In this document: piece after piece, positions 24,167 to 38,094 of the stretch
Numbering within the stretch: the stretch's first letter is position 1
Layout of the letters: the number at the start of each line of letters is the position of its first letter
Assembly (NCBI GenBank): GCA_017308115.1
Contig: JAFKFS010000016.1
Location: 37 to 64,036 of the forward strand
From: Bordetella sp.
Lineage (GTDB): Bacteria; Pseudomonadota; Alphaproteobacteria; Caulobacterales; Caulobacteraceae
Direction: 5' to 3'
DNA length: 64,000 bases
Notes under the pieces: model-generated
Database searches by the model: none
Told to the model about the DNA's origin: nothing
What the model saw: the letters and a program-made list of their open reading frames with translations, nothing else
Translations under genes and position numbers: made by a program

Positions 24167-25084
24167 TCAGAACGCCGGATCGCTCAGCCGCCAGGTCGCG
24201 CCCAGTTCGGGCTTGGGCGACGCTTGGACCCTGCCTTCCTTCTCCAGCTTGATCAGGTGCGCTAGCACTGAAAGGCTGGCGGCCGGCCACAGGCGCTCAT
24301 CCACCCCGGCGTAGAGGGCGGGGACCATCTCCTCGATCCTGCGATCGCCCGAGGCCAGCCGAGCCATGATCTGGGCCTCGCGCTCCAGGCGATGGGCGCG
24401 GTAGGCCTTCACAAAGGGCGCGACCTGGGTGATCGCCGGGCCGTGCGTCGGCCAGATCGTCGAGAAGCCGCGCGACAAAACGGCGTCCAGGCTTTTCATG
24501 TAATCGGCCATGTCGCCGTCCGGCGGCGCCACGACGGTGGTCGACCAGCCCATGATGTGATCGCCGCTGAACAGGGCGTTTTCTTCCCGCAGGACGAAGG
24601 CCATGTGGTTGGAGGCGTGTCCCGGCGTGGCCAGGGCCTCCAGCGTCCAGCCGTCGCCTTCGATCCGCTCGCCGCCCCTCAGCGTCACGTCGCAATGGAA
24701 GTCGGCGTCGTCGTCTTCATCCAGGGGGCCTGAGGCGTGAACGGCCCGTTCCGGGGGGCGGGCGGCCAGGATCGGCGCGCCCCCGACCGCCTCCGCCAGC
24801 GGGCGGGCGAGGGGGGCGTGATCCCTATGGGTGTGCGTCACCAGGATGCAGCTGACGGTGCGGCCTTCGATCGCGCGAAGCAGGGCCGCCAGATGAGCCT
24901 CGTCCATAGGGCCGGGATCGATCACCGCGATCTCCGCCCCCGGCCGATCGCGCCCGACGATGTAGGTTCCCGTTCCCGTGAAGGTGAACGGCCCGGGATT
25001 GTCGGCGATCACCCGCTGGATCAGCGGCGAAACCTGATCGCGGCGCCCATAGGCGAAGTCGAACTGTCGAACGTAGGGGATCAT
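24167..25084 (-). CDS. MBL-fold metallo-hydrolase
   Basis: NPGPFTFTGTGTY, VIDPGP, THTHRDH, TPGHASNH, FSGDH, PTHG. Confidence 0.93.
   Translation of the reverse strand: MIPYVRQFDFAYGRRDQVSPLIQRVIADNPGPFTFTGTGTYIVGRDRPGAEIAVIDPGPMDEAHLAALLRAIEGRTVSCILVTHTHRDHAPLARPLAEAVGGAPILAARPPERAVHASGPLDEDDDADFHCDVTLRGGERIEGDGWTLEALATPGHASNHMAFVLREENALFSGDHIMGWSTTVVAPPDGDMADYMKSLDAVLSRGFSTIWPTHGPAITQVAPFVKAYRAHRLEREAQIMARLASGDRRIEEMVPALYAGVDERLWPAASLSVLAHLIKLEKEGRVQASPKPELGATWRLSDPAF
24868..25082 (-). repeat. Left arm of the ~213-bp inverted repeat (5' end of the MBL gene)
   Basis: Reverse complement aligns to 33111-33321 with about 12 mismatches and 2 small deletions (manual count). Confidence 0.92.
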
Positions 25085-25202
25085 CGATCTCGCACCCTCC
25101 AGAGGCTTCTGGTCTCCGACATATGAGCACGTCCGTCGGCAGGAAAGGCCAGTCCTGCCGAACTCATGCCGATGTGGCCGCGAGGAGGCGCGTTGGGAAA
25201 AT

Positions 25203-25778
25203 CTATTGTCGTTTCACGCGCACGGCGCGGCTGCGGCCTATGGTCAGAAGGTAGCTGCCTAGCGTGGCCCGACGTACTCGAACCTCCGCTCCTGGCTGGT
25301 TGCGGAAACGGACCGGCGCTGAATCGATCTGACGCCATTCGGCTCCGTCGGCCAGGTGAAAGGTCCATTTTCCTTCGGAGTTTTGGGAGGCTGTTGTCAG
25401 TGTGGTTTCCACAGCCTCCGCCTCGACATCATCTTCGCGTCCTTTTCCGAGAATGGAAGACAGATCTGGCGAGTTGAAACCAAAAAGTTGACGGCGTGCT
25501 TCGCGTATCTGCCCGCGTTCCACCACGACCAGGTCTCCTGCTTGCTCCGCCGCGTCTAACGCTTGGGTCGCGCGATCATAGCAGGCGAGGCGATCCGTAT
25601 CTGAACCTATCGCCCGACACGCTGTCAGGGATGCGAGGCCGGGCGTCTGCGGTGTGGCTGAAGTTTGGGCCATAGCGGCGGATGGAGAGGAAAATTGGGT
25701 CGCGGCTAGGGCTAGTATGACAATCCTAGTGCGCAACTTGCATAATTTTCCAAAATTATGGCGAGAGGCAGTGTTCAT
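25203..25778 (-). CDS. Secreted hypothetical protein A (TBDR-associated; paralog of 32570-33097)
   Basis: Signal-peptide-like N-terminus (alternative TTG start at 25736), CR-I...RLACYD Cys pair, ARRQLFGF, WTFHLADGAEWRQID, LGSY...SRAVRV. Confidence 0.85.
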   Translation of the reverse strand: MNTASRHNFGKLCKLRTRIVILALAATQFSSPSAAMAQTSATPQTPGLASLTACRAIGSDTDRLACYDRATQALDAAEQAGDLVVVERGQIREARRQLFGFNSPDLSSILGKGREDDVEAEAVETTLTTASQNSEGKWTFHLADGAEWRQIDSAPVRFRNQPGAEVRVRRATLGSYLLTIGRSRAVRVKRQ

Positions 25779-25989
25779 GATCGGGCTTGGCTCAAGAGTG
25801 TCTAATTTGCGACATGACGACGGCGAGCGTGTTACGGTTCGGATTTTCGCGTAGCCTTTGTCTCATATAGCGATCTAAGCTTTCCGTCAGCTAGTATCCG
25901 AGTGTCTTTGTGGTGCTCTGGTTCGAGACTGGCCGCGCCGAACGATGAAGTGAAGACTTCGTGATGTTTGGCGCTTCTCAGGAGGATGA

Positions 25990-28900
25990 ATGTTGAAATT
26001 ACATATGAAACGTGAGCGGTTGCTGGCGTCGACGATGATCGCTGGCTTCGCGCTCGTTGGGCTTTCGACGCCTGCCGCGGCGCAGACGGCGGACGAACAG
26101 GTCAGTCAGGTCAGCGACATCGTCGTGACCGGTTCGCGCCTGCGTCAGCCCAACCTGACCACCACCAGCCCCGTGACCCAGGTGACGGGCGAGGACATCG
26201 ACGTTCAGGGCGTGACCCGCGTCGAGGACCTGGTGTCGCAGTTGCCGCAAGCTTTCGCCGCCCAGAACTCGACTGTCGCCAACGGCGCTTCGGGCACGGC
26301 GACCGTGTCGCTGCGCAACCTCGGTTCGTCGCGCACCCTGGTGCTGATCGACGGCAAGCGCATGGGCTACGGCTCGCCCGAGGACGACGCCGCCGACCTG
26401 AACCAGATTCCGGGTCAGATGGTCGAGCGCGTCGAAGTCCTGACCGGCGGCGCCTCGGCTGTCTACGGTTCGGACGCCATCGCCGGTGTCGTGAACTTCA
26501 TCATGCGTCGTAACTTCGAAGGCGTCGAAATCGACGCTTCGTACGGCTTCTATCAGCACAACAACGACTATGACGGCGTGGGCGATCTGCGCAGCGTCAT
26601 CGCCGGCCGGGCCCAAACCAACCCGTCGCAGTTCCAACTGCCCGACGACAACGTTCAGACCGGCTTCAGCCGCGAAGTGAACATCCTGATGGGCGTCAAC
26701 GCTCCCGATGATCGCGGCAACATCACTCTGTACGCCGGTTATCGTAAGAACAACAAGGTTCTGGGCCGCGACTACGACTATTCGTCCTGTTCGCTGGGCG
26801 GCCAATCCGGCAACGCCTTTACCTGCGGCGGTTCCGGCACCTCCTTCCCGGGTCAGTTCACCGACTTCGCCACCTATGCCTATACGGTCGACGCGAGCGG
26901 CAACTTCATTCCCTATACCGCGGGCCTTCACGCCTATAACTTCGGTCCGCTGAACTATTTCCAGCGTCCGGACGAGCGTTACACCCTGGGCGCCTTCGGT
27001 CACTATGACGTGACTGATAAGGTCGAACTCTACACCCAGCTGATGTTCAGCGATTATTCGACCGTCGCGCAGATCGCGCCGTCGGGTAACTTCTTCGGCG
27101 AATTCGCCAACGGCTTCCGCACGACCGACGGCAGCTCGCTCATCAGCTGCGACAATCCCCTGCTGAGCGATCAGCAAAGGAATGCGGTGGGCTGCGCGCC
27201 CGGCCAGCAGGTGGACATGTACATCGGTCGCCGCAACGTCGAAGGCGGCGGTCGTCAATCCGACCTGCGTTATCAGGCCTATCGCGGCGTCCTCGGCGCA
27301 CGCGGCGATCTGAACGACGCCTGGAGCTACGACCTGGCGATTCAGTATTCGCGCTCGCAATACACCCAAGTCTATCGCAACGAGTTCTCCAACACCCGCC
27401 TGGCGCGCGCGCTCGACGTGGTGACGGACCCCAGCACCGGCAACCCGGTCTGCTCGTCGGTGCTGGCGGGAATCGATGCCGATTGCGTGCCCTACAACAT
27501 CTTCCGTTCCGGCGGGGTGACGCAGCAGGCGCTCGACTATCTGCAGGTGCCGCTGATCGCGACCGGCTGGACCACCCAGCAGGTCGTCACCGGCTCGCTG
27601 ACGGCCGACCTGGGTTCCTATGGGTTGAAGTCGCCGTGGGCGACGCGCGGCGTGCAGGCGGCGTTCGGCGCCGAGTATCGCCGTGACGCCCTGGACCTGA
27701 CGCCCGACGTCTCCTTCACCAGCGGCGACGGCGCGGGTCAAGGCGGCGCAAAGATGGGCCTGAACGGCGCCAACCAAGTCTATGACCTCTTCCTGGAAGC
27801 CCAGGTTCCGATCGCCGAAGGCATGGCGTTCGCTGATCAACTGTCGGTCGACCTGGCCTATCGTCATTCGGAGTATGAACTGGGCGGCGGCACGGATTCG
27901 TGGAAGATCGGCGGCGATTGGGCTCCGGTTCCGTCGGTTCGTTTCCGCGCAAGCGCCCAGCGCGCCGTCCGCGCCCCGAACGTGATCGAGTTGTTCACGG
28001 CTCAAGGCTTCAACCTGTTCGACATGGACGCCGACCCCTGCGACAAGAACGCTGCGGGCACCTATGCGGGCGACGCCGCCTGTATCGGCACCAACCCGTG
28101 GCAGGTGAGGCCGGACCAGGCCGTCAGCATGGGCATCTCCAGCCCGTCAGGGCAGTACAACTTCCTGCAAGGCGGCAGTACGTCGCTGACGCCTGAAGAA
28201 TCCGACACCCTGACGCTGGGCGTCGTCTTCACGCCGGAGTTCCTCCCAGGCTTCAATCTGACGTTGGACTATTTCAACATCGAGATTGACAACCTGATCT
28301 CGTCGATCGGCGCTCAGAACTCCCTGGACGCCTGCTATACGGCAGGTCTCGCGGCGGCTTGCGCCAACATCGAGCGTAACGCTAACGGCCAGCTGTGGGT
28401 CGGCATCGGCAATGTCGTTGACCTGAACACCAACATCGGGGGCCTCAAGACCTCGGGTCTGGATATCGCGGCCAACTACAGCATCGATCTGGCCGATTTC
28501 GGCTGGGATCGCGCCGGTCGCCTGGGCTTCGCCATGGTCGGCACCCTGCTGAACTCGCTGGAGACCGATACCGGGCTGGGCTTCGCCAACTCCAAGTACG
28601 ACTGCGCCGGCTTCTACGCCAACCAGTGCGGTGTGCCGAACCCGGAATGGCGTCACCGCTTCCGCGTTGACTGGCAGACCCCGATCGAGGGCCTGAATAT
28701 GAACGGCACCTGGCGCTACTACGGTGAAGCCGAAATCGCCGTTCTGGGGGCCGACGGCAGCCTGAACAACGCACCGGCCAACCGTCTGGATCGAGTTCTG
28801 GACTCCCAGAACTACTTCGACCTGGCCGGCACCTGGCAGATGCGGGACAATGTCTCGCTGCGCGCCGGCGTGAACAACGTCTTCGATTCCGATCCGCCGC

Positions 28901-29001
28901 TGTCCTACTCGGTCGGCACGACGGGTAACAACAACACCTACCCGCAACTGTACAACGCTATGGGCCGCTACTTCTTCTTCGGCGTCACGGCGAACTTCTA
29001 A
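25990..29001 (+). CDS. TonB-dependent receptor 1 (1003 aa)
   Basis: AGGAGG RBS, signal peptide, DIVVTGSR TonB-box region, plug RTLVLIDGKR and VYGSDAIAGVVNFI, C-terminal GVTANF; several Cys-pair loops. Confidence 0.95.
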   Translation: MLKLHMKRERLLASTMIAGFALVGLSTPAAAQTADEQVSQVSDIVVTGSRLRQPNLTTTSPVTQVTGEDIDVQGVTRVEDLVSQLPQAFAAQNSTVANGASGTATVSLRNLGSSRTLVLIDGKRMGYGSPEDDAADLNQIPGQMVERVEVLTGGASAVYGSDAIAGVVNFIMRRNFEGVEIDASYGFYQHNNDYDGVGDLRSVIAGRAQTNPSQFQLPDDNVQTGFSREVNILMGVNAPDDRGNITLYAGYRKNNKVLGRDYDYSSCSLGGQSGNAFTCGGSGTSFPGQFTDFATYAYTVDASGNFIPYTAGLHAYNFGPLNYFQRPDERYTLGAFGHYDVTDKVELYTQLMFSDYSTVAQIAPSGNFFGEFANGFRTTDGSSLISCDNPLLSDQQRNAVGCAPGQQVDMYIGRRNVEGGGRQSDLRYQAYRGVLGARGDLNDAWSYDLAIQYSRSQYTQVYRNEFSNTRLARALDVVTDPSTGNPVCSSVLAGIDADCVPYNIFRSGGVTQQALDYLQVPLIATGWTTQQVVTGSLTADLGSYGLKSPWATRGVQAAFGAEYRRDALDLTPDVSFTSGDGAGQGGAKMGLNGANQVYDLFLEAQVPIAEGMAFADQLSVDLAYRHSEYELGGGTDSWKIGGDWAPVPSVRFRASAQRAVRAPNVIELFTAQGFNLFDMDADPCDKNAAGTYAGDAACIGTNPWQVRPDQAVSMGISSPSGQYNFLQGGSTSLTPEESDTLTLGVVFTPEFLPGFNLTLDYFNIEIDNLISSIGAQNSLDACYTAGLAAACANIERNANGQLWVGIGNVVDLNTNIGGLKTSGLDIAANYSIDLADFGWDRAGRLGFAMVGTLLNSLETDTGLGFANSKYDCAGFYANQCGVPNPEWRHRFRVDWQTPIEGLNMNGTWRYYGEAEIAVLGADGSLNNAPANRLDRVLDSQNYFDLAGTWQMRDNVSLRAGVNNVFDSDPPLSYSVGTTGNNNTYPQLYNAMGRYFFFGVTANF

Positions 29002-29024
29002 ACCTTCGCAGAGGGTTGAAATCG

Positions 29025-29056
29025 GGCGGCGAGCTTTCGGGCTCGCCGCCTTTTTT
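29025..29056 (+). terminator. Rho-independent terminator of TBDR1
   Basis: GGCGGCGAGC/GCTCGCCGCC stem followed by T6. Confidence 0.88.
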
Positions 29057-29230
29057 GCGGCCTCACATCTGCTGTTGGTGAACCGGCGCCTCAGGCGCAT
29101 AGCATCCTTGGTTAGCCATCCTGGCCCAAGTGGCGGGATGACTGACGCGTCGCCGAACCCAAATTGAGCGATCCGTGCAACCAGGCGCAACTTGTCGTTC
29201 CGGCGACCTCTCAATGTGAAGGCGGCATAG

Positions 29231-29261
29231 AAAAAGGCGGCGGACCCGAGGATCCGCCGCC
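29231..29261 (-). terminator. Rho-independent terminator of TBDR2
   Basis: GGCGGCGGA/TCCGCCGCC stem followed by T5 on the minus strand. Confidence 0.85.
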
Positions 29262-29285
29262 CAGTCTTGAAGTCCGATCTACGGC

Positions 29286-32200
29286 TTAGAAGCGCGCCGT
29301 CAGACCCACGAAGTAACGACGACCGAGCACGTCATAGGTCGACGGGTCGGTGTTCGACTGGATGTTGGGCGAATACAGCTGCGGCTGCTCATCCAGAACG
29401 TTGTTCACGCCGGCGCGCAGCGAGACGGTGTCGTTGACATCCCACGAACCGCGCAGGTCGAAGTACCACACGGAGTCCGTGCCGGTGCCGGCGCCGCCGG
29501 TCACAGTGTTCGAGTGACGCATTTCGTCAATGTAACGAGCCGTAGCCGTCAGCGAGAACGGATCCAGCGACCAGCTACCTTGAACGGTGTGGCGCCATTC
29601 CGGCGTAGCCGAACCGGTGCCCGTACCGATGGTGCCGACGTAGTCGTAAACAGGATCAACGGTCGACAGTTGGCTGGTGTACTTCTCAACCCAGGTCGAC
29701 AGGACGTTCACGCCGAACGAACCCACCGATTCCGTGTCGAAGCGAACGTTGAAGGCAACGTCCACGCCCGAAGTTTCGGTGAAGGCCTGGTTACGAGACA
29801 GCAGCTTGAGCTTCTCGATGCCGCCGGTGGCCTGGTTGCGTTGGAACAGCCGGCACCACTCGTTGTTCGGATCGAAGGTCGGGTTCGCGTTGTCGCGGTT
29901 GAAGCAACGCTGAACCACGGTGCCCGCGCTCGGAGCCGAGATCACGTCTTCCAACGAGATCGACCAGTAGTCGACAGACAGGTAGAGCGAGTCAGCCCAA
30001 CCACCGGTGTTGAACGGCGATTGAGAAACGAAGCCCAAGGTCCACGATTCCGAGGTTTCCGGCATCAGATCCGGGTTACCGCCGGTGATGGTGTTCGCTT
30101 GGCTCTCCCAAGCGAAGGTCGGGTCGCCCGCGACGATCGCTTGCTTGGCGCAGAGTTCAGCAACCTTGGCGCCGTTCGCACCGTTACGGCCGAAGATGGC
30201 GGTCGTCGGTTGCCGGACATCGCACGGGTCCTGACGGTCGAACGACGGGAAGTTGTTCGTCTGCGGCGAGAACAGTTCCGAGATGGAGGGCGAACGGACA
30301 GCCGTTTGCATGCCGCCGCGGATGCGGAACCAGTCGTTGACGGCCCATTCCAGGTTAGCCTTCCACGATTCCGACGACCCCGAGTTCGAGTTGTCCGAAA
30401 CGCGGTAGCCCAGCGACAGCGACATGTCCTTGGCGAAGGCCACGTCCTTGACGATCGGCACCAGAAGTTCGGCGAACAGGTCCGTCCAGTTCAGGAAGCC
30501 CGAAACCGGCGATTGTTCGTTGAAGCCCGCCACGATGCCCGGCTGCAGGCCGCTGTCCGGACGGAAGTTGAAGTCCAGTTCGCGGTAGCTCATGCCGAAC
30601 GCGCCCTGCAGGGGGCCAGCCGGCAGTTCGAACAGGTCGCCGTTGACGGTCGCTTCAACGATTGACTGCTCGATCACGGTCAGGTTCTTGGCTTCGAGGC
30701 TGATGTAAGCCGCGCAGGTCGGATCGATCGGAGCCGAACCAAACAGGTTCAGACCGTTCGGGCACTTGCCGCCCGACAAAGCCGCCTGTTCGGCGATGGT
30801 CGGAGCGCGGAACGCGGCAACGCGAGCTGCGTATTGAGCATCGGTTTCGGTATCGCGCTTGGCGTCAACATGACCCAACAGCAGGCCAACGCGGTCACGA
30901 CGAACGTTGCCGCCTTGAATTTCGTTCAGGACCGAACGACCAAACGACGCATAGACGTCATACTGCCAGGTGTTGGTGCGCGCCAGACGGCCCTTGGTGC
31001 CGAGCGTAGCTTGCCAGACGTCGTGGGTGTTGTAGCCGGTACGGCCGCCCAGGTCGTTAAAGCGCTTCGAGAAGGCGAAAGGAGCGGTCGGGTCCGGACG
31101 CAGAGCCAGAAGACCAGCCAACTGCGAGCCGATGAAGGGGTTGCTAGCCGCAACGTTCCAGCCGGTCGAACCGCCAGCCGGCGTCGGAGCCAGTTCCTGC
31201 AGGGCGTTGTAGTTCGTGTACATCGCCTGGACATACGGCTTGAACTGCTCGTTGACCTCGTAGTTCATGCGGGTGAACAGGTTCCACCGCTCCATCGGCA
31301 GGACGAGGATGTTGTCCGGCTCGAAGTTGTACGAGAAGACGTTCGGAGCAAAATTCGTTGCGATAGCCGATTCAGGACCGGTATAGCCGTACATGTTGTA
31401 GACGGAGCTGGCGGTCAGACCGCTACAGAACAGGCTGCCGTCCGGGTTGAAGCCAAAGCCCGCGTGACCGCCGGTGTTGGCGCAACGATTGGCGCCGCCG
31501 AAGTAGGCGTCAACCGCAGCTTGGGTCGGACGGTTTGCGGCGATCATACCGGCAGTACCGCCCGGGAAGATCGTCGTGGTCGACGAGGCTTGACCTGAGA
31601 ACTCGCGGGCGTCCTTGTACATGGCTTCACGGTTGAAGTAGCCGGCGTTGAAGACCGCGTTACCCTTACCGTCAGCGAAGTTGCCGCCGAAGGTGATGTC
31701 GGTCGACCACTCTTGGCCGTCGCCTTGTTCGGTCAGACGGTACTGCGAGTCGAGCTGGATGCCTTCAAAGCTGTCACGCAGGATGAAGTTCACAACACCC
31801 GACACGGCGTCAGCGCCGTAGGTCGAGGCGGCGCCGCCCGAGATGATTTCGACGCGCTGGATCAGCGACGCCGGAATAGTGTTGGTGTCGACGGTGCCAC
31901 CAGCCGTGGAACCCATCGGGCGACGACCATCGATCAGGACCAGGTTACGACCCGAACCCAGACCGCGCAGATCGATGAAGGCGCGGCCGTTCGAGGACGG
32001 GTTGTTCGACTGCGAGGACAGACCGGCCGTGATTTGCGGCAGGGTGTTCAGATAGTGCTCGACGGTCGTCGCGCCGGAGTGGGTGATGTCTTCCTGCTGA
32101 ACGGTCAGGATCGGGCTTTCAGCAACCGCGTCCCGGCGCGCGATGCGCGAGCCGGTCACCACGATCTCATCGACGCGCGTAGCGTCGTCCTGCGAAGCGC

Positions 32201-32294
32201 TTTGGGCGAGAGCAGGAACTGCGAAGCCTGCAGATGCGACCCCAATGATCATCGACGTAGCAAGAAGCCGCTTCCGATGTTTCCTATAGGCCAA
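29286..32294 (-). CDS. TonB-dependent receptor 2 (~1002 aa)
   Basis: TTG start with GGAGGG RBS; EIVVTGSR, RNLVLIDGRR, TYGADAVSGVVNFI, C-terminal VGLTARF. Confidence 0.95.
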   Translation of the reverse strand: MAYRKHRKRLLATSMIIGVASAGFAVPALAQSASQDDATRVDEIVVTGSRIARRDAVAESPILTVQQEDITHSGATTVEHYLNTLPQITAGLSSQSNNPSSNGRAFIDLRGLGSGRNLVLIDGRRPMGSTAGGTVDTNTIPASLIQRVEIISGGAASTYGADAVSGVVNFILRDSFEGIQLDSQYRLTEQGDGQEWSTDITFGGNFADGKGNAVFNAGYFNREAMYKDAREFSGQASSTTTIFPGGTAGMIAANRPTQAAVDAYFGGANRCANTGGHAGFGFNPDGSLFCSGLTASSVYNMYGYTGPESAIATNFAPNVFSYNFEPDNILVLPMERWNLFTRMNYEVNEQFKPYVQAMYTNYNALQELAPTPAGGSTGWNVAASNPFIGSQLAGLLALRPDPTAPFAFSKRFNDLGGRTGYNTHDVWQATLGTKGRLARTNTWQYDVYASFGRSVLNEIQGGNVRRDRVGLLLGHVDAKRDTETDAQYAARVAAFRAPTIAEQAALSGGKCPNGLNLFGSAPIDPTCAAYISLEAKNLTVIEQSIVEATVNGDLFELPAGPLQGAFGMSYRELDFNFRPDSGLQPGIVAGFNEQSPVSGFLNWTDLFAELLVPIVKDVAFAKDMSLSLGYRVSDNSNSGSSESWKANLEWAVNDWFRIRGGMQTAVRSPSISELFSPQTNNFPSFDRQDPCDVRQPTTAIFGRNGANGAKVAELCAKQAIVAGDPTFAWESQANTITGGNPDLMPETSESWTLGFVSQSPFNTGGWADSLYLSVDYWSISLEDVISAPSAGTVVQRCFNRDNANPTFDPNNEWCRLFQRNQATGGIEKLKLLSRNQAFTETSGVDVAFNVRFDTESVGSFGVNVLSTWVEKYTSQLSTVDPVYDYVGTIGTGTGSATPEWRHTVQGSWSLDPFSLTATARYIDEMRHSNTVTGGAGTGTDSVWYFDLRGSWDVNDTVSLRAGVNNVLDEQPQLYSPNIQSNTDPSTYDVLGRRYFVGLTARF

Positions 32295-32569
32295 TTTTTT
32301 CCCTCCAGGATGGAAAAGGTTTGATTTCAATCACACGTAAAAATCGACACCGACGCCTGTCAGACATGCCTGGCGATACAGGAATCGATTTCAGCGTCGG
32401 GAACCTCTACTGGTTAAGGGACGAAATGTGGAACGCCATAATAATTCAGGCACGAATTAGCCTTCAGCATGTCTCATAATCACCACATATTGACGCAATA
32501 CGGCCACAAAATAATCGCCCTCTAATTCAGACAAAATTGCTAAAAAACGCCAAAAGAAAGCAACGGACG

Positions 32570-33097
32570 ATGACAGAGAAACATTTTTTTGCCTGCAAAT
32601 TGGCTATTTTGGCCGCATTTTTGTCCGTCCCGGCAAACGACGCCAGGGCTCAGGCCGCGCGCCCTGTCGCTGCGCTAGAACGTCTGAAAGAATGCCGTCT
32701 GATCGTCGAGGCGGACGCGCGGGCGCGTTGTTTCGAAGCCGGCGCCGCATCCCTGATTTCCACCTACGACAACGGCGACCTGATCATTATCGAGCGCGCC
32801 CAGGCGGACGCCGCCCGACGGGCGATGTTCGGTTTCTCGGCGCCGAGCCTGCCTGCTGTGTTCGGCGGCGACGCCATAGACGCGCTGGAAACCTCGTTGG
32901 TGCGGACCGCGGGCGCCGCGAACGGCGCCTGGATATTCCACCTTGCAGACGGCTCCGTATGGCGGCAGATCGACAACACGCGCGTAGCCAACCCCCGCAA
33001 TCGTCAAGGAGAACCCGTCATCGTCCGAAAGGCGGCGTTGGGCAGCTACTTCCTCAAAATCGGGGACAGCCGAGCGATACGCGTTCGGCGAGAGTAA
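32570..33097 (+). CDS. Secreted hypothetical protein B (TBDR-associated; paralog of 25203-25778)
   Basis: Signal-peptide-like N-terminus, CRLI...RARCFE, ARRAMFGF, WIFHLADGSVWRQID, LGSY...SRAIRV. Confidence 0.85.
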   Translation: MTEKHFFACKLAILAAFLSVPANDARAQAARPVAALERLKECRLIVEADARARCFEAGAASLISTYDNGDLIIIERAQADAARRAMFGFSAPSLPAVFGGDAIDALETSLVRTAGAANGAWIFHLADGSVWRQIDNTRVANPRNRQGEPVIVRKAALGSYFLKIGDSRAIRVRRE

Positions 33098-33110
33098 AGG
33101 CGTGACTGGC

Positions 33111-33321
33111 GATCCCCTGGGTTCGACAGTTCGACTTCGCCTATGGGCGCCGCGATCAGGTTTCGCCGCTGATCTAGTAGGTGATCGCCGACAACCCCGG
33201 GCCGTTCACCTTCACGGGAACGGGAAGCTACATCGTCGGGCGCGATCGGCCGAGGCGGAGATCGCGATGATCGATCCTGGCCCGGACGAGGCTCGTCTGT
33301 CGGCCCTGCTTCGCGCGATCG
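33111..33321 (+). pseudogene. Degenerate copy of the 5' 215 nt of the MBL hydrolase gene (right arm of the inverted repeat)
   Basis: ~92% identical by manual alignment; ATG lost, CAG CGG changed to TAG TAG in frame, 1-nt and 3-nt deletions. Confidence 0.9.
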
Positions 33322-33487
33322 GTCGAAGCGCGACTTCCGTTCGCGGGCTTCCAGGCGTCGGTTCGGCGGGCCGCGCGCGACGTTTCATCGGACGCGCAGA
33401 AGCACGCTCGCAAGAAGGGCGGATTGTTTCGGATCGGGTTTTGCGAGGGGAGGGGGGGGCGCGCCACTCCCTCATGTCTGAGAGGAG

Positions 33488-33564
33488 TGGCGCGAGTGAC
33501 GGGGCTCGAACCCGCGACCTCCGGCGTGACAGGCCGGCACTCTAACCAACTGAGCTACACCCGC
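33488..33564 (-). tRNA. tRNA-Asp (GTC)
   Basis: GCGGGTGTAGCTCAGTTGGTTAGAGTGCCGGCCTGTCACGCCGGAGGTCGCGGGTTCGAGCCCCGTCACTCGCGCCA; anticodon arm CCGGC-CTGTCAC-GCCGG; encoded CCA. Confidence 0.97.
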
Positions 33565-33665: not shown

Positions 33666-34208
33666 CTAGCGGCCGCAATCGAGGCCTTGGGCGTCGGGCG
33701 GGGCGTCGCCGCCGGGGCCGAGCGCCTTCTGCATGAAGACGACGTCGCGCCAGCCGTCGAACTTCCATCCGGCGTCGCGGAAGGCGCCCGCGTGGACGAA
33801 GCCCGCCGCCGCGTGCAGGGCGATGGAGCCGGTGTTGGCGCTGTCGCCGATCACCGCCACCATCTGGCGCATCCCCAGGGCCGCGCAGGCGTCGAGCAGG
33901 GCGTCCAACAGAGCCTTGCCCACGCCCCGGCCCCGATGGGTTTCGGCGACATAGATCGAATCCTCGACCATGAAGCGATAGGCGGCGCGCAGGCGATAGG
34001 GCGCGGCGTAGGCGTAGCCGGCGATCGCCCCGTCGATCTCGGCGACCAGGACAGGCAGGCCCAGGGCGGCGGGCGCGGCCAGGCGCGCCGCCATGTCTTC
34101 CGGCGAGGGGACGTCCAATTCGAACGTCCCCGTGCCCTGCAGCACGCTGTCGGCGTAGATGGCCGTCACGGCCGCCAGATCGGCCCCGGCGAACGGCCGG
34201 ACGATCAT
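33666..34208 (-). CDS. GNAT acetyltransferase (phosphinothricin/methionine-sulfoximine acetyltransferase family)
   Basis: GTFELDVP, GYAYA, VEDSIYV, RGRGVGKALL, SIALHAAAGF, KFDGWRDV. Confidence 0.88.
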   Translation of the reverse strand: MIVRPFAGADLAAVTAIYADSVLQGTGTFELDVPSPEDMAARLAAPAALGLPVLVAEIDGAIAGYAYAAPYRLRAAYRFMVEDSIYVAETHRGRGVGKALLDALLDACAALGMRQMVAVIGDSANTGSIALHAAAGFVHAGAFRDAGWKFDGWRDVVFMQKALGPGGDAPPDAQGLDCGR

Positions 34209-36382
34209 GCCTTTTCCCAGCCTTTTTCGACGGCCCAGACGGCGAAGGCGTAGTCGTGGGCGATGTCCTTGAGATAGTCGAAGCGCCCGGATGAGGCGAA
34301 ATGCCCGGCCTCCATATTGATCTTCAGCAGGACCGGCTTGCCCGAGGTCGAGGCCGGCCGCAGCCTGGCCACCCACTTCTGGGGCTCCCAATAGGTGACG
34401 CGCGGGTCGGACAGGCCCCCGGTCGCCAGCACCGCCGGATAGGGCTTGCTCTCGATCTGGTCGTAGGGGCTGTAGCTCAGCATGTAGTCATAGGCCGCCG
34501 CATCCTCGAGCGGGTTGCCCCACTCGGGCCATTCCGGCGGCGTCAGCGGCAGGCTGGTGTCGCTCATGGTGTTGATGACATCGACGAAGGGCACGCCCCC
34601 GATCACCCCCGCCCACAGTTCGGGGCGCATATTGGTCACGGCCCCCATCAGCAGGCCGCCCGCCGAGCGCCCCTCGGCCACGATGTTGCCGGCCCTGGCG
34701 TAGTTCCGGGCGATCAGGTGGTCGGCGGCGGCGATGAAGTCGGTGAAGGTGTTCTTCTTGGTGAAGCGTCGGGCGGTCAGGAACCAGTTCCAGCCCTTGT
34801 CCGAGCCGCCGCGGATATGGGCGATGGCGTAGATGAAGCCCCGGTCGACCAGCGACAGCCGGTTGGTCGAGAAACTGGCCGCCATCGGGATGCCGTAGGA
34901 GCCGTAGCCGTAGAGCAGCAGGGGCGCCGAGCCGTCGACCGGCGTGTCGTTGCGCCGCAGCACCGTCACCGGCACCAGCTCGCCATCGGAAGCCGGCGCG
35001 TTCAGACGCTCGACCACATAGTCCGCCGGATCATGGCCCGAGGGGATTTCCTGCACCTTGCGCAGGGTCCGCTCTCGGGTCTTCAGATCATAGTCATAGG
35101 TCGAGGTCGGCGTGGACGGCGAATTATAGCCGTAGCGCATGACCGTGGTGTCGAACTCCGACGCCCCGCCCAGCGACAGGGCGTAGGCGGGCTCGTCCAC
35201 GGCGATCTCGTGTTCGGCACCGGCGCGGTCGCGGATGACGATCCTGGTGTTGGCGTCGGCGCGTTCCTGGCGGCCCAGATAGCCCTTCACCAGGGCCACG
35301 CCCTCGATGAAGCGCCCGGGCGTGTGGGGGATCAGGTCCTTCCAGTTGGCCTTGGCCGGGGCGTCGGTCGGCGCCTCGACCACCTTGAAGTCGACGGCGT
35401 CGTCGGCGTTGGTGCGGATCACCCAGCGGTCGCCCCAGTGGTCCAGGTCGTACAGGCGCCCGACGTGGCGCGGCTCGACCACCACGGGCGTCGCCGTCGG
35501 GGTCGCGCCGGGAATGATGCGGCCCTCGGAGGTTTCCTGATTGCCGATGCCGATGACGATGAAGGCGTCGTCGGCGGTGCGGCCGACGCTCTGGAACATG
35601 CCGTCGTCGGCTTCCTCATAGACCAGGGCCGTCTCGCCGCCGCGCGCGGGGCGGCGGAAGATCTTGTCGGGGCGGCCGTTGTCGTCGCGGTTGGTCCAGA
35701 AGATCCACCGGCTGTCGGGCGAGAAGGTGAAGTTCTCGGTCGCTGATTCGATGGGGTCTGGCAGGATTTCGCCGGTGGCCAGGTCCTTGACGTAGATCTT
35801 GTAGACTTCGGACCCCTGGGCGTCCTCGGCATAGGCGAACAGGGCGTGGTCGGGGCTGTGTTCGGTGGCGGACACCTCGGAATAGGCCTTGCCCTCGGCC
35901 AGTCTGTTGCAGTCCAGCAGGATGATCTCGCCGTCCGTTTCGCCGCGCGGGCGGCGGCAATAGAGGGGGTGCTGGTCGCCGGTGTTGTAGCGGACGTAAT
36001 ATTCCCACGGGCCGTCGGCGGCGGGGACGGAACTGTCGTCTTCCTTGATGCGGCCCTTCATCTCCTCGAACATCGCGGCCTGCAGGGGCAGGGTCGAGGC
36101 CATCATCGCTTCCCGATAGGCGTTCTCGGCGGTCAGGTGTTCCTTGACGTCGGCCTTGATCAGCGAGGGATCGCGCAGCACCGCCTGCCAGTTGTCGTCC
36201 TTCATCCACTGATAGTCGTCGATCCGCACGCGGCCCAGTTGCTCGATGCGGACAGGGACCTTCTTGGCGACGGGCGGGGCAGGCTGGGACATCGGAACTC
36301 CGGTCGTGGGGCGGGCGAGGGCGGGGGAGGCGGCCGCCACGCCGACGGCGGCGGTCGAGGCGATCAGTTCGCGACGGTTCAT
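34205..36382 (-). CDS. ptrB: Oligopeptidase B (S9A) with a twin-arginine signal
   Basis: MNRRELI Tat motif; RIDDYQWM, LLYGYGSYG, GRSAGG (Ser), DPRV (Asp), AGH (His). Confidence 0.92.
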   Translation of the reverse strand: MNRRELIASTAAVGVAAASPALARPTTGVPMSQPAPPVAKKVPVRIEQLGRVRIDDYQWMKDDNWQAVLRDPSLIKADVKEHLTAENAYREAMMASTLPLQAAMFEEMKGRIKEDDSSVPAADGPWEYYVRYNTGDQHPLYCRRPRGETDGEIILLDCNRLAEGKAYSEVSATEHSPDHALFAYAEDAQGSEVYKIYVKDLATGEILPDPIESATENFTFSPDSRWIFWTNRDDNGRPDKIFRRPARGGETALVYEEADDGMFQSVGRTADDAFIVIGIGNQETSEGRIIPGATPTATPVVVEPRHVGRLYDLDHWGDRWVIRTNADDAVDFKVVEAPTDAPAKANWKDLIPHTPGRFIEGVALVKGYLGRQERADANTRIVIRDRAGAEHEIAVDEPAYALSLGGASEFDTTVMRYGYNSPSTPTSTYDYDLKTRERTLRKVQEIPSGHDPADYVVERLNAPASDGELVPVTVLRRNDTPVDGSAPLLLYGYGSYGIPMAASFSTNRLSLVDRGFIYAIAHIRGGSDKGWNWFLTARRFTKKNTFTDFIAAADHLIARNYARAGNIVAEGRSAGGLLMGAVTNMRPELWAGVIGGVPFVDVINTMSDTSLPLTPPEWPEWGNPLEDAAAYDYMLSYSPYDQIESKPYPAVLATGGLSDPRVTYWEPQKWVARLRPASTSGKPVLLKINMEAGHFASSGRFDYLKDIAHDYAFAVWAVEKGWEKA

Positions 36383-36454: not shown

Positions 36455-37270
36455 ATGATCATTCAGGATCTTCCGCCCGAGCAACCCGCCGTCGTCGCCG
36501 CCCCGCCGCCCGAATGGGACCTGACGGTCGGAGTCATTAACGCCACCGTCCAACTGGATCAGGCGATCAACGGCAGCCAGAGGAAGGTCGGGACGGGCTT
36601 CCTGATCGCTGCGCCCCGACCTGACGGCGCGCCGCGCGTGGTGCTGGTGACGGCGCGGCACGTGCTGGACGTCATGCCCGGAAACCAGGCGCGCATCGGC
36701 TGGCGCACGGCCGAGGCGGACGGCGCCTGGAGGTTCACGCCCGGAACCCTGGACATCCGCGACGCCGGCGGCGCGCCGCTGTGGACCGCGCATCCGGAAC
36801 GCGACGTGGCGGTGATGGAGATCACCGCTCCGCCCGCCTTCGCCCAGGCGGCGATCCCCGTCGGCTGGCTGGCCGAGGCCGACGCCTTCGACCGTTGGCG
36901 CATGGGGCCGGGCGATGAACTGATGGCCCTGGGCTATCCGCACGGCCTGTCGGCCAACCGGGCGGGGTTCCCGATCCTGCGCCTGGGCCGGATCGCCTCC
37001 TGGCCGCTGACGCCGATCCGGCATTTCCCGATCTTCCTGCTCGACTTCGTGGTGGCCCAGGGCAATTCCGGCGGGCCGGTCTTCTGGACGCCCGCCGCGC
37101 GTCGCGTGCCCGGCGGGCCGGTTCCGGATCATCCCTTCATCGCCGGGGTTCTGGTGCAGGAGGTCCAGGGCGGCGGCGAAGGCCTGGACCTGGGCGTCGT
37201 GGCCCATGCCGAATATGTGCGCGAGACGATCGCCTTGCTGGATCAGTCCGTCGCCGGGCCGCAGTCGTAG
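36455..37270 (+). CDS. Trypsin-like serine protease
   Basis: GTGFLI, VTARHV (His), RDVAV (Asp), GNSGGP (Ser). Confidence 0.85.
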   Translation: MIIQDLPPEQPAVVAAPPPEWDLTVGVINATVQLDQAINGSQRKVGTGFLIAAPRPDGAPRVVLVTARHVLDVMPGNQARIGWRTAEADGAWRFTPGTLDIRDAGGAPLWTAHPERDVAVMEITAPPAFAQAAIPVGWLAEADAFDRWRMGPGDELMALGYPHGLSANRAGFPILRLGRIASWPLTPIRHFPIFLLDFVVAQGNSGGPVFWTPAARRVPGGPVPDHPFIAGVLVQEVQGGGEGLDLGVVAHAEYVRETIALLDQSVAGPQS

Positions 37271-38031
37271 GCTGCGCAGTAACGACGTCTCATCTCGGCG
37301 TCGATGGCGGCGGAATCCAGCTTCGGAAAGGCGGAAACGGTGTCCTGAGGCGTGATGGACGGCGCGTTTTCGCCCAGAATGAAGCGATCGGTCGTCTCCT
37401 TCGCCCACAGGCGCGCCATGCCCAGGGCTATGGTTTCGGCCAGGGCTTCATCTGAGGGAAACAGCTCTTCAGCCCAGGACAGGACGGCTGCGCGTCGGTC
37501 CTGCGACAACTCCTCGAGGCCCAGCCGTTCCGTCAAGGAGGGAATGCCCACCGCCGCGACGACTCGGCGAGCGTTCTCGACAAGGGCGGGCGAGGGCTCG
37601 GGGCCGGACCAGGCTGGAACCTCGTCCGTCTCGCCCTCGTCCTGATCTTCGGCGATGAATGGTAGGCTGACGACAAATTTGGACGGCGTGGCCACGCCGT
37701 TCACGCGGCGCGGCGTAAGGCGATGGCGAAGGATGATGCGCTTGGCGGCGTCGCCGAAGCCGAGGCCTGTCGGCCGCTCCGCCTTGATCAGGCAGTTCTC
37801 GGGACTTCCCTGCGGAGTGGCCACGCATTCCAGACTGACGGAGCCGCTGACGCCCAGATAGGCGGCGAAGGCGGGGTAGTCGCCCTCGTCGACCTGGGGC
37901 GGGACGACCCAGGCCGGACCTTCGATCACGACCGGATTTTGTCTACGTCCGGGCTGGTCTTCCGCAAGGGCGTCTGCGCCCGACCCGATGACGACCATGG
38001 CCAGGATCGCGGCACCGCCTGCTCGATTCAT
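37243..38031 (-). CDS. TonB C-terminal domain protein with an extra helical C-terminal region
   Basis: Signal/anchor, YPAFAAYLGVSGSVSLEC...C...ERPTGLGFGDAA...PRRVNGVA TonB_C pattern. Confidence 0.75.
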   Translation of the reverse strand: MNRAGGAAILAMVVIGSGADALAEDQPGRRQNPVVIEGPAWVVPPQVDEGDYPAFAAYLGVSGSVSLECVATPQGSPENCLIKAERPTGLGFGDAAKRIILRHRLTPRRVNGVATPSKFVVSLPFIAEDQDEGETDEVPAWSGPEPSPALVENARRVVAAVGIPSLTERLGLEELSQDRRAAVLSWAEELFPSDEALAETIALGMARLWAKETTDRFILGENAPSITPQDTVSAFPKLDSAAIDAEMRRRYCAAYDCGPATD

Positions 38032-38094
38032 ACGAAATCGCCTCCCGCGCCTAGGTGACACGGGAGGCGCTCGATGCTCAAGCATTGAAGGCGA

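What the first reader, a model, noticed from the sequence alone, without database searches (positions are those of the whole stretch)
25203..33097. Repeated unit: TonB-dependent receptor plus a divergently transcribed secreted 2-Cys partner protein
Seen twice independently in the window: a ~1000-aa Cys-loop-rich TBDR (signal peptides share R-x-RLLA-[ST][ST]-MI) shares an AT-rich promoter region with a ~175-190-aa exported protein. Both partners have a helical CR-x-I...R-x-x-C N-domain, an ARR-x-x-FGF linker and a beta-rich W-x-FHLADG-x-x-WRQID...LGSY...SRA-x-RV domain, and neither has a well-placed lipobox. Established: some TBDRs need dedicated partners (SusD lids, surface or periplasmic binding proteins); I recognise no named family here. 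Inference: an undescribed TBDR accessory family (substrate capture, assembly chaperone or periplasmic acceptor), with cognate pairing A-TBDR1 and B-TBDR2. No catabolic enzymes are present, so the substrate is unknown.
Basis: partly seen in the sequence, partly recalled or inferred. Interest (0 to 1): 0.72.

Follow-up and report, generated by a model that had tools for sequence, protein, structure and literature searches.

The report
Exported partner protein of peptide-import receptors
Two copies of a gene pair (a large outer-membrane TonB-dependent receptor and a small exported protein of an undescribed family) are real and strongly conserved; in related bacteria the same small protein sits inside oligopeptide (Opp) import loci, so it is most likely a periplasmic helper of a peptide-uptake route, though its action is untested.

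Summary
In this Brevundimonas window, hypA (25203-25778, -) faces TBDR1 (25990-29001, +), and TBDR2 (29286-32330, -) faces hypB (32537-33097, +). hypA and hypB are 40% identical; the two receptors are 29% identical.

The small proteins form a large family that no database describes: 5,783 clusters at 50% identity. Only the N-terminal 2-Cys domain weakly matches VasI/TagO, a protein of unknown function. The C-terminal six-stranded beta domain has no significant PDB neighbour.

All 79 Caulobacterales loci have a receptor of the same ~1000-aa kind upstream of the small gene, about 72 of them directly divergent. The pair was duplicated and moved as a unit. Both copies keep a shared ~19-bp element between the genes.

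The family is not specific to TonB-dependent receptors. Elsewhere in Alphaproteobacteria the homolog lies on the opposite strand inside Opp-type loci, divergent from an OppA-like binding protein. In non-Brevundimonas Caulobacterales the order is receptor, hyp, then oppC-oppB.

Best reading (about 0.5): a periplasmic accessory co-expressed with the substrate-receptor component of an oligopeptide import route. Brevundimonas kept only the receptor-hyp core. Physical interaction, substrate and mechanism are inferred, not shown.

The parts
25203..25778 (-). hypA: exported 2-Cys helical domain plus small beta-domain protein. The longest ORF is 191 aa; the likely true start is TTG at 25736, giving 177 aa.
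   Evidence: Translation. Family alignment. AF2 model: signal helix, helical hairpin carrying C54 and C66, helix 88-99, flexible linker, six strands at 122-190.
25779..25989 (.). Divergent control region of hypA and TBDR1 (52% GC). It contains the conserved element GTGTCTAATTTGCGACATG at 25798-25816, which reads CATGTCGCAAATTAGACAC towards hypA.
   Evidence: Sequence. The element sits at a fixed position in nearly all Caulobacterales modules. GC content.
25990..29001 (+). TBDR1: 1003-aa TonB-dependent receptor with a signal peptide, the TonB box DIVVTGSR, 12 Cys in 6 pairs and a C-terminal Phe.
   Evidence: Orthologs are 63-89% identical across Brevundimonas.
29024..29262 (.). Two facing intrinsic terminators (29024-29051 on + and 29262-29235 on -) that end the convergent receptor genes.
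29286..32330 (-). TBDR2: 1014-aa paralogous TonB-dependent receptor with 8 Cys in 4 pairs.
32331..32569 (.). Divergent control region of TBDR2 and hypB (45% GC). It carries the same element, CATGTCTCATAATCACCAC, at 32468-32486, reading towards hypB.
32537..33097 (+). hypB: paralog of hypA. The ORF is 186 aa; the likely start is ATG at 32570, giving 175 aa.

Best explanation
hypA and hypB encode Sec-exported, soluble periplasmic proteins of a large undescribed family. Each has an N-terminal disulfide-type 2-Cys helical domain related to the N-domain of VasI/TagO, then a conserved FG motif, a flexible linker and a small, very basic six-stranded beta domain.

The gene is an ancient, co-regulated divergent partner of the substrate-receptor gene of an Opp-type oligopeptide import locus. 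In most Alphaproteobacteria that receptor is an OppA-like binding protein. In Caulobacterales it is a ~1000-aa Cys-loop TonB-dependent receptor, sometimes together with OppA. Brevundimonas lost the adjacent oppBC genes and kept the receptor-hyp core. In this genome the core is present as two old paralogous modules.

Shown here: the family, its domain layout, the conserved linkage, and the shared cis element.

Inferred: the protein acts in the periplasm as an accessory of the receptor step. It may bind the incoming peptide-like cargo, or dock on the receptor or binding protein, to hand cargo onward or to tune uptake. It is also inferred that TBDR1 and TBDR2 carry oligopeptide-like substrates across the outer membrane.
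For: (1) Family. A profile search gives 5,783 clusters at E<=1e-3 and 430 at E<=1e-30. Invariant residues are C54, R63, C66, F99, G100, W148 and R190. There is no curated family.

(2) Fold. AF2 gives pLDDT 79.6 for the whole protein and 90.6 for the C-domain. Foldseek finds no significant PDB neighbour.

(3) Linkage to the receptor. All 79 Caulobacterales loci have a receptor upstream, with a median gap of 334 bp. In the B. diminuta group the two modules lie in tandem; here they are inverted relative to each other, so the pair moves as a unit. Distant lineages link hyp to receptors of the same kind in other orientations (L083, L088, L089, L091, L099).

(4) Linkage to Opp. hyp is divergent from OppA-like SBP_bac_5 genes and convergent with oppDF-oppC-oppB in L084, L090, L092, L095, L096, L101, L103, L105, L106, L107 and L108. 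The adjacent binding protein matches solved OppA and MppA over its full length (E 1e-109).

(5) Bridge between the two contexts. L078, L080 and L082 have receptor - OppA - hyp - oppC - oppB. L075-L077 have receptor - hyp - oppC - oppB. The same MBL gene that follows hypA in this window follows the opp genes in L076 and L078, and lies just downstream of hyp in L073.

(6) Co-regulation. A ~19-bp element, plus an AATTAC-N7-GTAAC inverted repeat in most orthologs, is conserved at a fixed place in the divergent promoter, in both paralogous modules.
Against: - There is no direct evidence of binding, localisation or phenotype.
- The structure tool folds only single chains, so no complex could be modelled.
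- Much of the 79 of 79 figure is shared synteny within one order, not 79 independent events.
- About a third of distant homologs have neither a receptor nor an Opp gene beside them. Some sit next to glutathione S-transferases, so the family's role may be more general.
- The window has no opp genes, so the peptide link rests on relatives.
- No conserved pocket or catalytic residues suggest a ligand.
Confidence: 0.5

Rival explanations
1. Periplasmic sensor or regulator. The protein reports cargo or envelope state to an unlinked signalling system and so controls expression of the receptor genes. It does not take part in transport.
For: Its placement is divergent and promoter-sharing, as is typical of regulators. 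Conserved operator-like elements lie between the genes. The N-domain is shared with VasI/TagO, which a 2026 review lists as an 'unknown regulator' of T6SS (PMC13584744).
Against: No partner kinase, anti-sigma factor or transducer domain is conserved next to it. The receptors lack an N-terminal signalling extension. The protein has no membrane anchor beyond a cleavable signal peptide.
Confidence: 0.15
2. Passenger gene. The pair is kept together only by a shared bidirectional promoter and inherited gene order, and the small protein has an unrelated periplasmic role.
For: Most of the 79 loci come from one order with conserved flanks (MBL, DUF1499-like and AMP-binding genes). The wider family has several contexts.
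Against: The module was duplicated and inverted as a unit. The same divergent pairing with a receptor-type gene, either OppA or a TBDR, recurs across distant alphaproteobacterial families and in different orientations. That is not expected for a passenger.
Confidence: 0.15
3. Protective binder. TonB-dependent receptors and Opp systems are entry gates for toxic peptides. The basic small-barrel protein would sequester or block harmful cargo in the periplasm, acting as a gate-keeper or immunity-like factor.
For: It is linked to both kinds of peptide gate. The fold is small, stable and disulfide-bonded.
Against: No toxin or bacteriocin genes are nearby. The family is conserved as a single-copy core gene rather than varying as immunity genes do. 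The protein is strongly basic, which does not suit binding of cationic peptides.
Confidence: 0.08
4. A VasI/TagO-type accessory of a type VI secretion system.
For: Weak Pfam and NCBIfam hits to the first ~24 positions of VasI. A few relatives reach the Pfam threshold over positions 1-77 of 184.
Against: hypA scores 17.3 bits against a cut-off of 26.5. The C-terminal 60% of VasI is not matched. No T6SS gene was found among the neighbours scanned here or in more than 100 related loci.
Confidence: 0.02

Closest known systems
VasI / TagO (Pfam PF11319, TIGR03360), T6SS-associated protein of unknown function
   Same: Similar size (~180-200 aa), a signal peptide, and the N-terminal C-x11-C helical motif (C..I.D...RLxCYD). 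Some family members match profile positions 1-77 at or near the Pfam threshold.
   Different: The C-terminal beta domain is not matched. hypA and hypB fall below the threshold. The gene context is receptor or Opp import, not T6SS. VasI has no known function (PMC13584744), so the relation explains nothing mechanistically.
Opp oligopeptide ABC importer (OppA-OppBCDF; MppA)
   Same: In relatives, hyp lies inside such loci. The adjacent binding protein is a full-length OppA/MppA homolog.
   Different: No accessory periplasmic protein of this kind is part of the described Opp systems (my own knowledge). The window itself has no opp genes.
Receptor-partner pairs: HasR-HasA hemophore, TbpA-TbpB, SusC-SusD and RagA-RagB (peptide import in Porphyromonas)
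   Same: A TonB-dependent transporter encoded beside a dedicated extracytoplasmic partner. RagAB sets the precedent that such transporters import oligopeptides (from memory, not checked here).
   Different: There is no sequence or fold similarity. hyp has no lipobox and no T1SS signal, is much smaller than SusD or TbpB, and is probably periplasmic rather than on the surface.
E. coli yncD-yncE (TonB-dependent receptor with a divergently transcribed secreted periplasmic protein)
   Same: The same gene geometry: a receptor and a Sec-exported soluble protein share a bidirectional promoter. The role is also unresolved (from memory).
   Different: YncE is a ~350-aa beta-propeller, an unrelated fold and family.

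Membership tests
TonB-dependent receptor (TBDR1, TBDR2) | Plug domain plus 22-strand barrel domain above the Pfam thresholds | tested here: met
   PF07715 scores 83 and 73 bits; PF00593 scores 119 and 94 bits.
TonB-dependent receptor (TBDR1, TBDR2) | Signal peptide, N-terminal TonB box and C-terminal aromatic residue | tested here: met
   DIVVTGSR and EIVVTGSR follow AxA-Q sites. The proteins end in ...TANF and ...TARF.
TonB-dependent transducer (FecA type) | N-terminal signalling (STN) extension before the plug | tested here: not met
   The plug starts about 25 residues after the signal peptide, and there is no STN hit.
VasI/TagO (PF11319) | Score above the Pfam gathering cut-off over the length of the profile | tested here: not met
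   hypA scores 17.3 bits against 26.5, covering positions 2-24 of 184. hypB has no hit. 29 of 56 relatives hit only weakly. The best relative scores 28.9 bits but covers only positions 1-77.
VasI/TagO (PF11319) | Encoded within a type VI secretion gene cluster | tested here: not met
   No T6SS families were found among the neighbours scanned in the window or in related loci.
Surface-lipoprotein partners of TBDRs (SusD, TbpB, HmuY types) | Lipobox cysteine at the end of the signal peptide, and family domains | tested here: not met
   There is no L-x-[GA]-C after the hydrophobic core, the cleavage sites are AxA-Q, and there is no Pfam hit.
Opp-type oligopeptide import locus (as context of the family) | OppA-like SBP_bac_5 plus OppB/OppC permeases and OppD/F ATPase beside the gene | tested here: inconclusive
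   Met in 11 or more related loci. Partly met in L075-L082 (oppBC, with or without OppA). Not met in this window: tblastn finds no opp genes in 64 kb.

The most novel reading that the evidence does not exclude
Alphaproteobacteria have a previously unrecognised trans-envelope oligopeptide route. A ~1000-aa Cys-loop TonB-dependent receptor brings peptides across the outer membrane. A new periplasmic adaptor family, with a VasI-N domain and a basic small barrel, couples the receptor step to OppA/OppBCDF. In Brevundimonas the adaptor works with the receptor alone. This would be the first dedicated periplasmic accessory shared by a TonB-dependent receptor and an ABC binding protein, and it would give a first functional handle on the VasI/TagO N-domain.
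Probability: 0.3. Interest if true: 0.75.

Novelty: new variant of a known kind. Interest (0 to 1): 0.6.

Why it matters
TonB-dependent receptors of this large clade, which is not known to carry siderophores, are abundant in Caulobacterales and Sphingomonadales, and almost none has a known cargo or partner. Here a big protein family with no description (thousands of sequence clusters) is tied by gene order to both such receptors and Opp oligopeptide importers. That gives a concrete, testable idea for the cargo (peptides) and for a new periplasmic component of uptake systems. It also links the orphan VasI/TagO N-domain to a second cellular context.

Tried and rejected
- Pfam and NCBIfam scans of hypA, hypB and 56 relatives found only the VasI N-motif.
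- A profile search against PDB sequences found nothing.
- Foldseek against PDB was run with the full model and with the C-domain model. The best E-value was 0.04-0.09, with only loose OB-like and IF1-like resemblance and TM <= 0.5, so no fold assignment was made.
- Rfam found no riboswitch or leader in the control regions, only the tRNA.
- The third weak own-genome hit (L003) is an M14-like peptidase that matches only in its signal-peptide region, and was rejected.
- ORF 33102-33545 downstream of hypB is spurious. It overlaps the MBL 5' copy and tRNA-Asp.
- Pho-box, Fur, Zur and sigma-70 readings of the conserved element, made from memory, fitted nothing convincingly. The promoter scan was at chance level.
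- Co-divergence of hyp and receptor trees gave Pearson r = 0.68. This is only weak support, because adjacent genes co-diverge anyway and my ORF starts were noisy.
- Literature searches for the motif, for TBDR with sulfotransferase, and for TBDR with oligopeptides found nothing relevant.
For that reason the receptor count, the location of opp genes elsewhere in this genome, VasI profile-profile comparison, and RNA evidence are all missing.
Full report
**What is in the window**

The window is about 68% GC. The best homologs of its proteins are from Brevundimonas. Between an MBL-fold hydrolase gene (24167-25084, -) and tRNA-Asp (33488-33564, -) lie four genes:
- hypA, 25203-25778 (-)
- TBDR1, 25990-29001 (+)
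- TBDR2, 29286-32330 (-)
- hypB, 32537-33097 (+)

The two receptors converge on a pair of strong intrinsic terminators. Each receptor shares an AT-rich region (45-52% GC) with a small gene. hypA and hypB are 40% identical. The receptors are 29% identical over their full length. The receptors carry 12 and 8 cysteines in closely spaced pairs.

Alignment with homologs of 176-180 aa places the true starts at TTG 25736 for hypA and ATG 32570 for hypB. With those starts each precursor has a short basic N-region, a hydrophobic core and an AxA-Q cleavage site. There is no lipobox, and the mature proteins contain exactly two cysteines.

**The small protein**

Neither Pfam nor NCBIfam places hypA or hypB. 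The only signal is a sub-threshold match of about 24 residues to the start of VasI (PF11319, TIGR03360). A profile of 18 sequences found 5,783 clusters (50% identity representatives) at E<=1e-3 and 430 at E<=1e-30, so this is a large family.

Of 56 diverse members, 29 show the weak VasI N-motif and nothing else. A few more distant relatives reach the VasI gathering score, but only over profile positions 1-77 of 184. The N-domain is therefore homologous to the VasI/TagO N-domain, while the C-terminal domain is not covered by any model. VasI/TagO itself is listed as of unknown function in a 2026 review (PMC13584744).

AlphaFold2 predicts the following layout:
- a signal helix
- a helical hairpin carrying the invariant C54 and C66
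- a helix ending in the invariant F-G motif
- a flexible linker
- a six-stranded beta domain

The C-domain modelled alone reaches pLDDT 90.6 and pTM 0.78. Foldseek against PDB gives no hit better than E = 0.04. The resemblances are loose and OB-like, and a profile search of PDB sequences finds nothing.

Distant members show that the architecture is modular. They have one or two N-motifs, Pro/Ala-rich linkers of variable length, and one or two 'FG + beta domain' units. Conserved residues are dominated by arginines (R55, R63, R95/96, R149, R169, R184, R187, R190), two Trp and Gly. No catalytic-looking set is present.

**Linkage to the receptor**

A scan of one genome per species returned 79 loci, nearly all Caulobacterales. 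In all 79 a receptor homologous over its full length to TBDR1 or TBDR2 lies upstream of the small gene. In about 72 it is the directly divergent neighbour, with a median gap of 334 bp.

Much of this is inherited synteny. The flanking MBL, DUF1499-like and AMP-binding genes are conserved too. Several facts go beyond synteny:
1. Two old paralogous modules exist.
2. In the B. diminuta group the two modules lie in tandem ([TBDR2<][>hypB][TBDR1<][>hypA][>MBL]). In this window the TBDR2-hypB module is inverted. The pair is therefore the unit that moves.
3. In a class-wide even sample (21 of 301 genomes carry the family), distant homologs are again next to receptors of the same ~1000-aa kind (27-31% identical over the full length). 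The geometries differ: divergent in L083 and L089, receptor-then-hyp in L088 and L091, and hyp-then-receptor in L099.
4. A ~19-bp element (consensus CATGTCGCAAAATCGCCACG) lies at a fixed position between the genes in almost all modules. It is present in both paralogous modules of this window, at 25798-25816 and 32468-32486, in the same orientation relative to hyp. Most orthologs also carry an AATTAC-N7-GTAAC inverted repeat nearby.

I could not match these elements to a known regulator.

**The unexpected part: Opp**

Where something is inserted between the receptor and hyp, the insert is one of three things: an OppA-like SBP_bac_5 gene (L078, L080, L082), a 2OG-Fe(II) oxygenase (three Caulobacter loci), or a TPR-sulfotransferase (L071).

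The same OppA-like gene is the divergent neighbour of hyp in many distant loci that have no receptor: L084, L090, L092, L095, L096 and L101. There hyp sits on the opposite strand, between oppB-oppC-oppDF and the binding-protein gene or genes. Six further look-ups of a Rhizomicrobium-type subfamily showed the same layout in five cases (L103, L105, L106, L107, L108). L107 also has a receptor. The binding protein aligns over its full length with solved OppA and MppA structures (E about 1e-109).

The non-Brevundimonas Caulobacterales bridge the two contexts:
- L075-L077 read receptor <-> hyp, then convergent oppC-oppB.
- L078, L080 and L082 read receptor - OppA <-> hyp - oppC - oppB.
- Beyond the opp genes in L076 and L078 lies the same MBL/BLACT_WH gene that directly follows hypA in this window; L073 has it about 600 bp downstream of hyp.

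The simplest history is an ancestral locus of oppBC(DF) - hyp - receptor gene. The receptor role was filled by OppA, by a TonB-dependent receptor, or by both. Brevundimonas then lost oppBC from the site. The window itself has no opp genes.

**Interpretation**

What is shown:
- hyp is a real, widespread, exported two-domain protein family.
- Its gene has been kept head-to-head with the gene of the substrate-receptor component of an Opp-type import locus across Alphaproteobacteria.
- In Caulobacterales that component is a large Cys-loop TonB-dependent receptor.

What is inferred:
- The protein works in the periplasm as an accessory of the receptor step.
- The receptors carry oligopeptide-like cargo.

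I put about 0.5 on this. The family and the pairing hold, but the family is not TBDR-specific. Its broader partner is OppA, and the cargo can be narrowed to peptides.

The rivals are a sensing or regulatory role, a passenger gene, a protective binder, and a T6SS role. The last is contradicted by context and by the failed VasI membership test.

Caveats:
- A Cys-rich subfamily lies in tandem arrays next to glutathione S-transferase genes (L087, L098, L100).
- About a quarter to a third of distant loci show no transporter neighbour.
- No interaction, localisation or expression data could be obtained.

As a result I could not:
- count receptors or locate opp genes elsewhere in this genome
- run the reverse census (what share of receptors in the TBDR1 and TBDR2 clade have hyp beside them)
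- build a VasI alignment for a profile-profile comparison
- check transcription

The structure tool folds only single chains, so no complex was modelled.

Noticed in passing
window 24868-25093 and 33100-33321: An inverted repeat of ~225 nt (92-95% identical) brackets the whole 8-kb cassette. The second arm is a copy of the 5' end of the MBL gene and sits 3 nt after the hypB stop. It could mediate inversion. It may also record how the TBDR2-hypB module came to be flipped relative to the tandem layout in B. diminuta.
   Followed up: partly
window 33488-33564 (-); ORF 33102-33545: tRNA-Asp lies directly beside the cassette. The cassette is 62-64% GC against about 68% in the flanks. The 147-aa ORF after hypB is spurious, because it overlaps the repeat and the tRNA.
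   Followed up: partly
window 25203-25736: hypA has GC3 of only 0.57. TBDR2 and hypB are at 0.77 and 0.72, TBDR1 at 0.83, and the neighbouring housekeeping genes at 0.86-0.90. This odd codon usage is unexplained.
   Followed up: no
L004-L082 intergenic regions; window 25798-25816 and 32468-32486: The divergent promoter contains operator-like conserved elements: CATGTCGCAAAATCGCCACG, and in most orthologs AATTAC-N7-GTAAC and a downstream GGTTGAC. The regulator is unknown.
   Followed up: partly
L068, L069, L072 (Caulobacter); L071, L077, L081; L078, L083: 2OG-Fe(II) oxygenase genes or TPR-sulfotransferase-family genes lie inside or beside the receptor-hyp module in several non-Brevundimonas loci. 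This hints at a modified (hydroxylated or sulfated) cargo or product.
   Followed up: partly
L098 6198-8624; L100 4321-6271; L087: A Cys-rich subfamily of the same protein family occurs as three tandem genes next to a glutathione S-transferase gene and an FAD-linked oxidase gene. This context differs from the import loci.
   Followed up: partly
window 34205-36382 (-) and 37243-38085 (-): An S9 prolyl oligopeptidase gene and a gene with a TonB C-terminal domain lie just beyond the tRNA. They fit a peptide-uptake theme but are not conserved next to the module in relatives.
   Followed up: partly
L092 1937-2938; L099 7033-8100 and 13910-15067: Some relatives carry two copies of the 'FG motif + beta domain' unit in one protein, and L101 carries two copies of the N-terminal 2-Cys motif. 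The two domains therefore behave as independent modules.
   Followed up: partly
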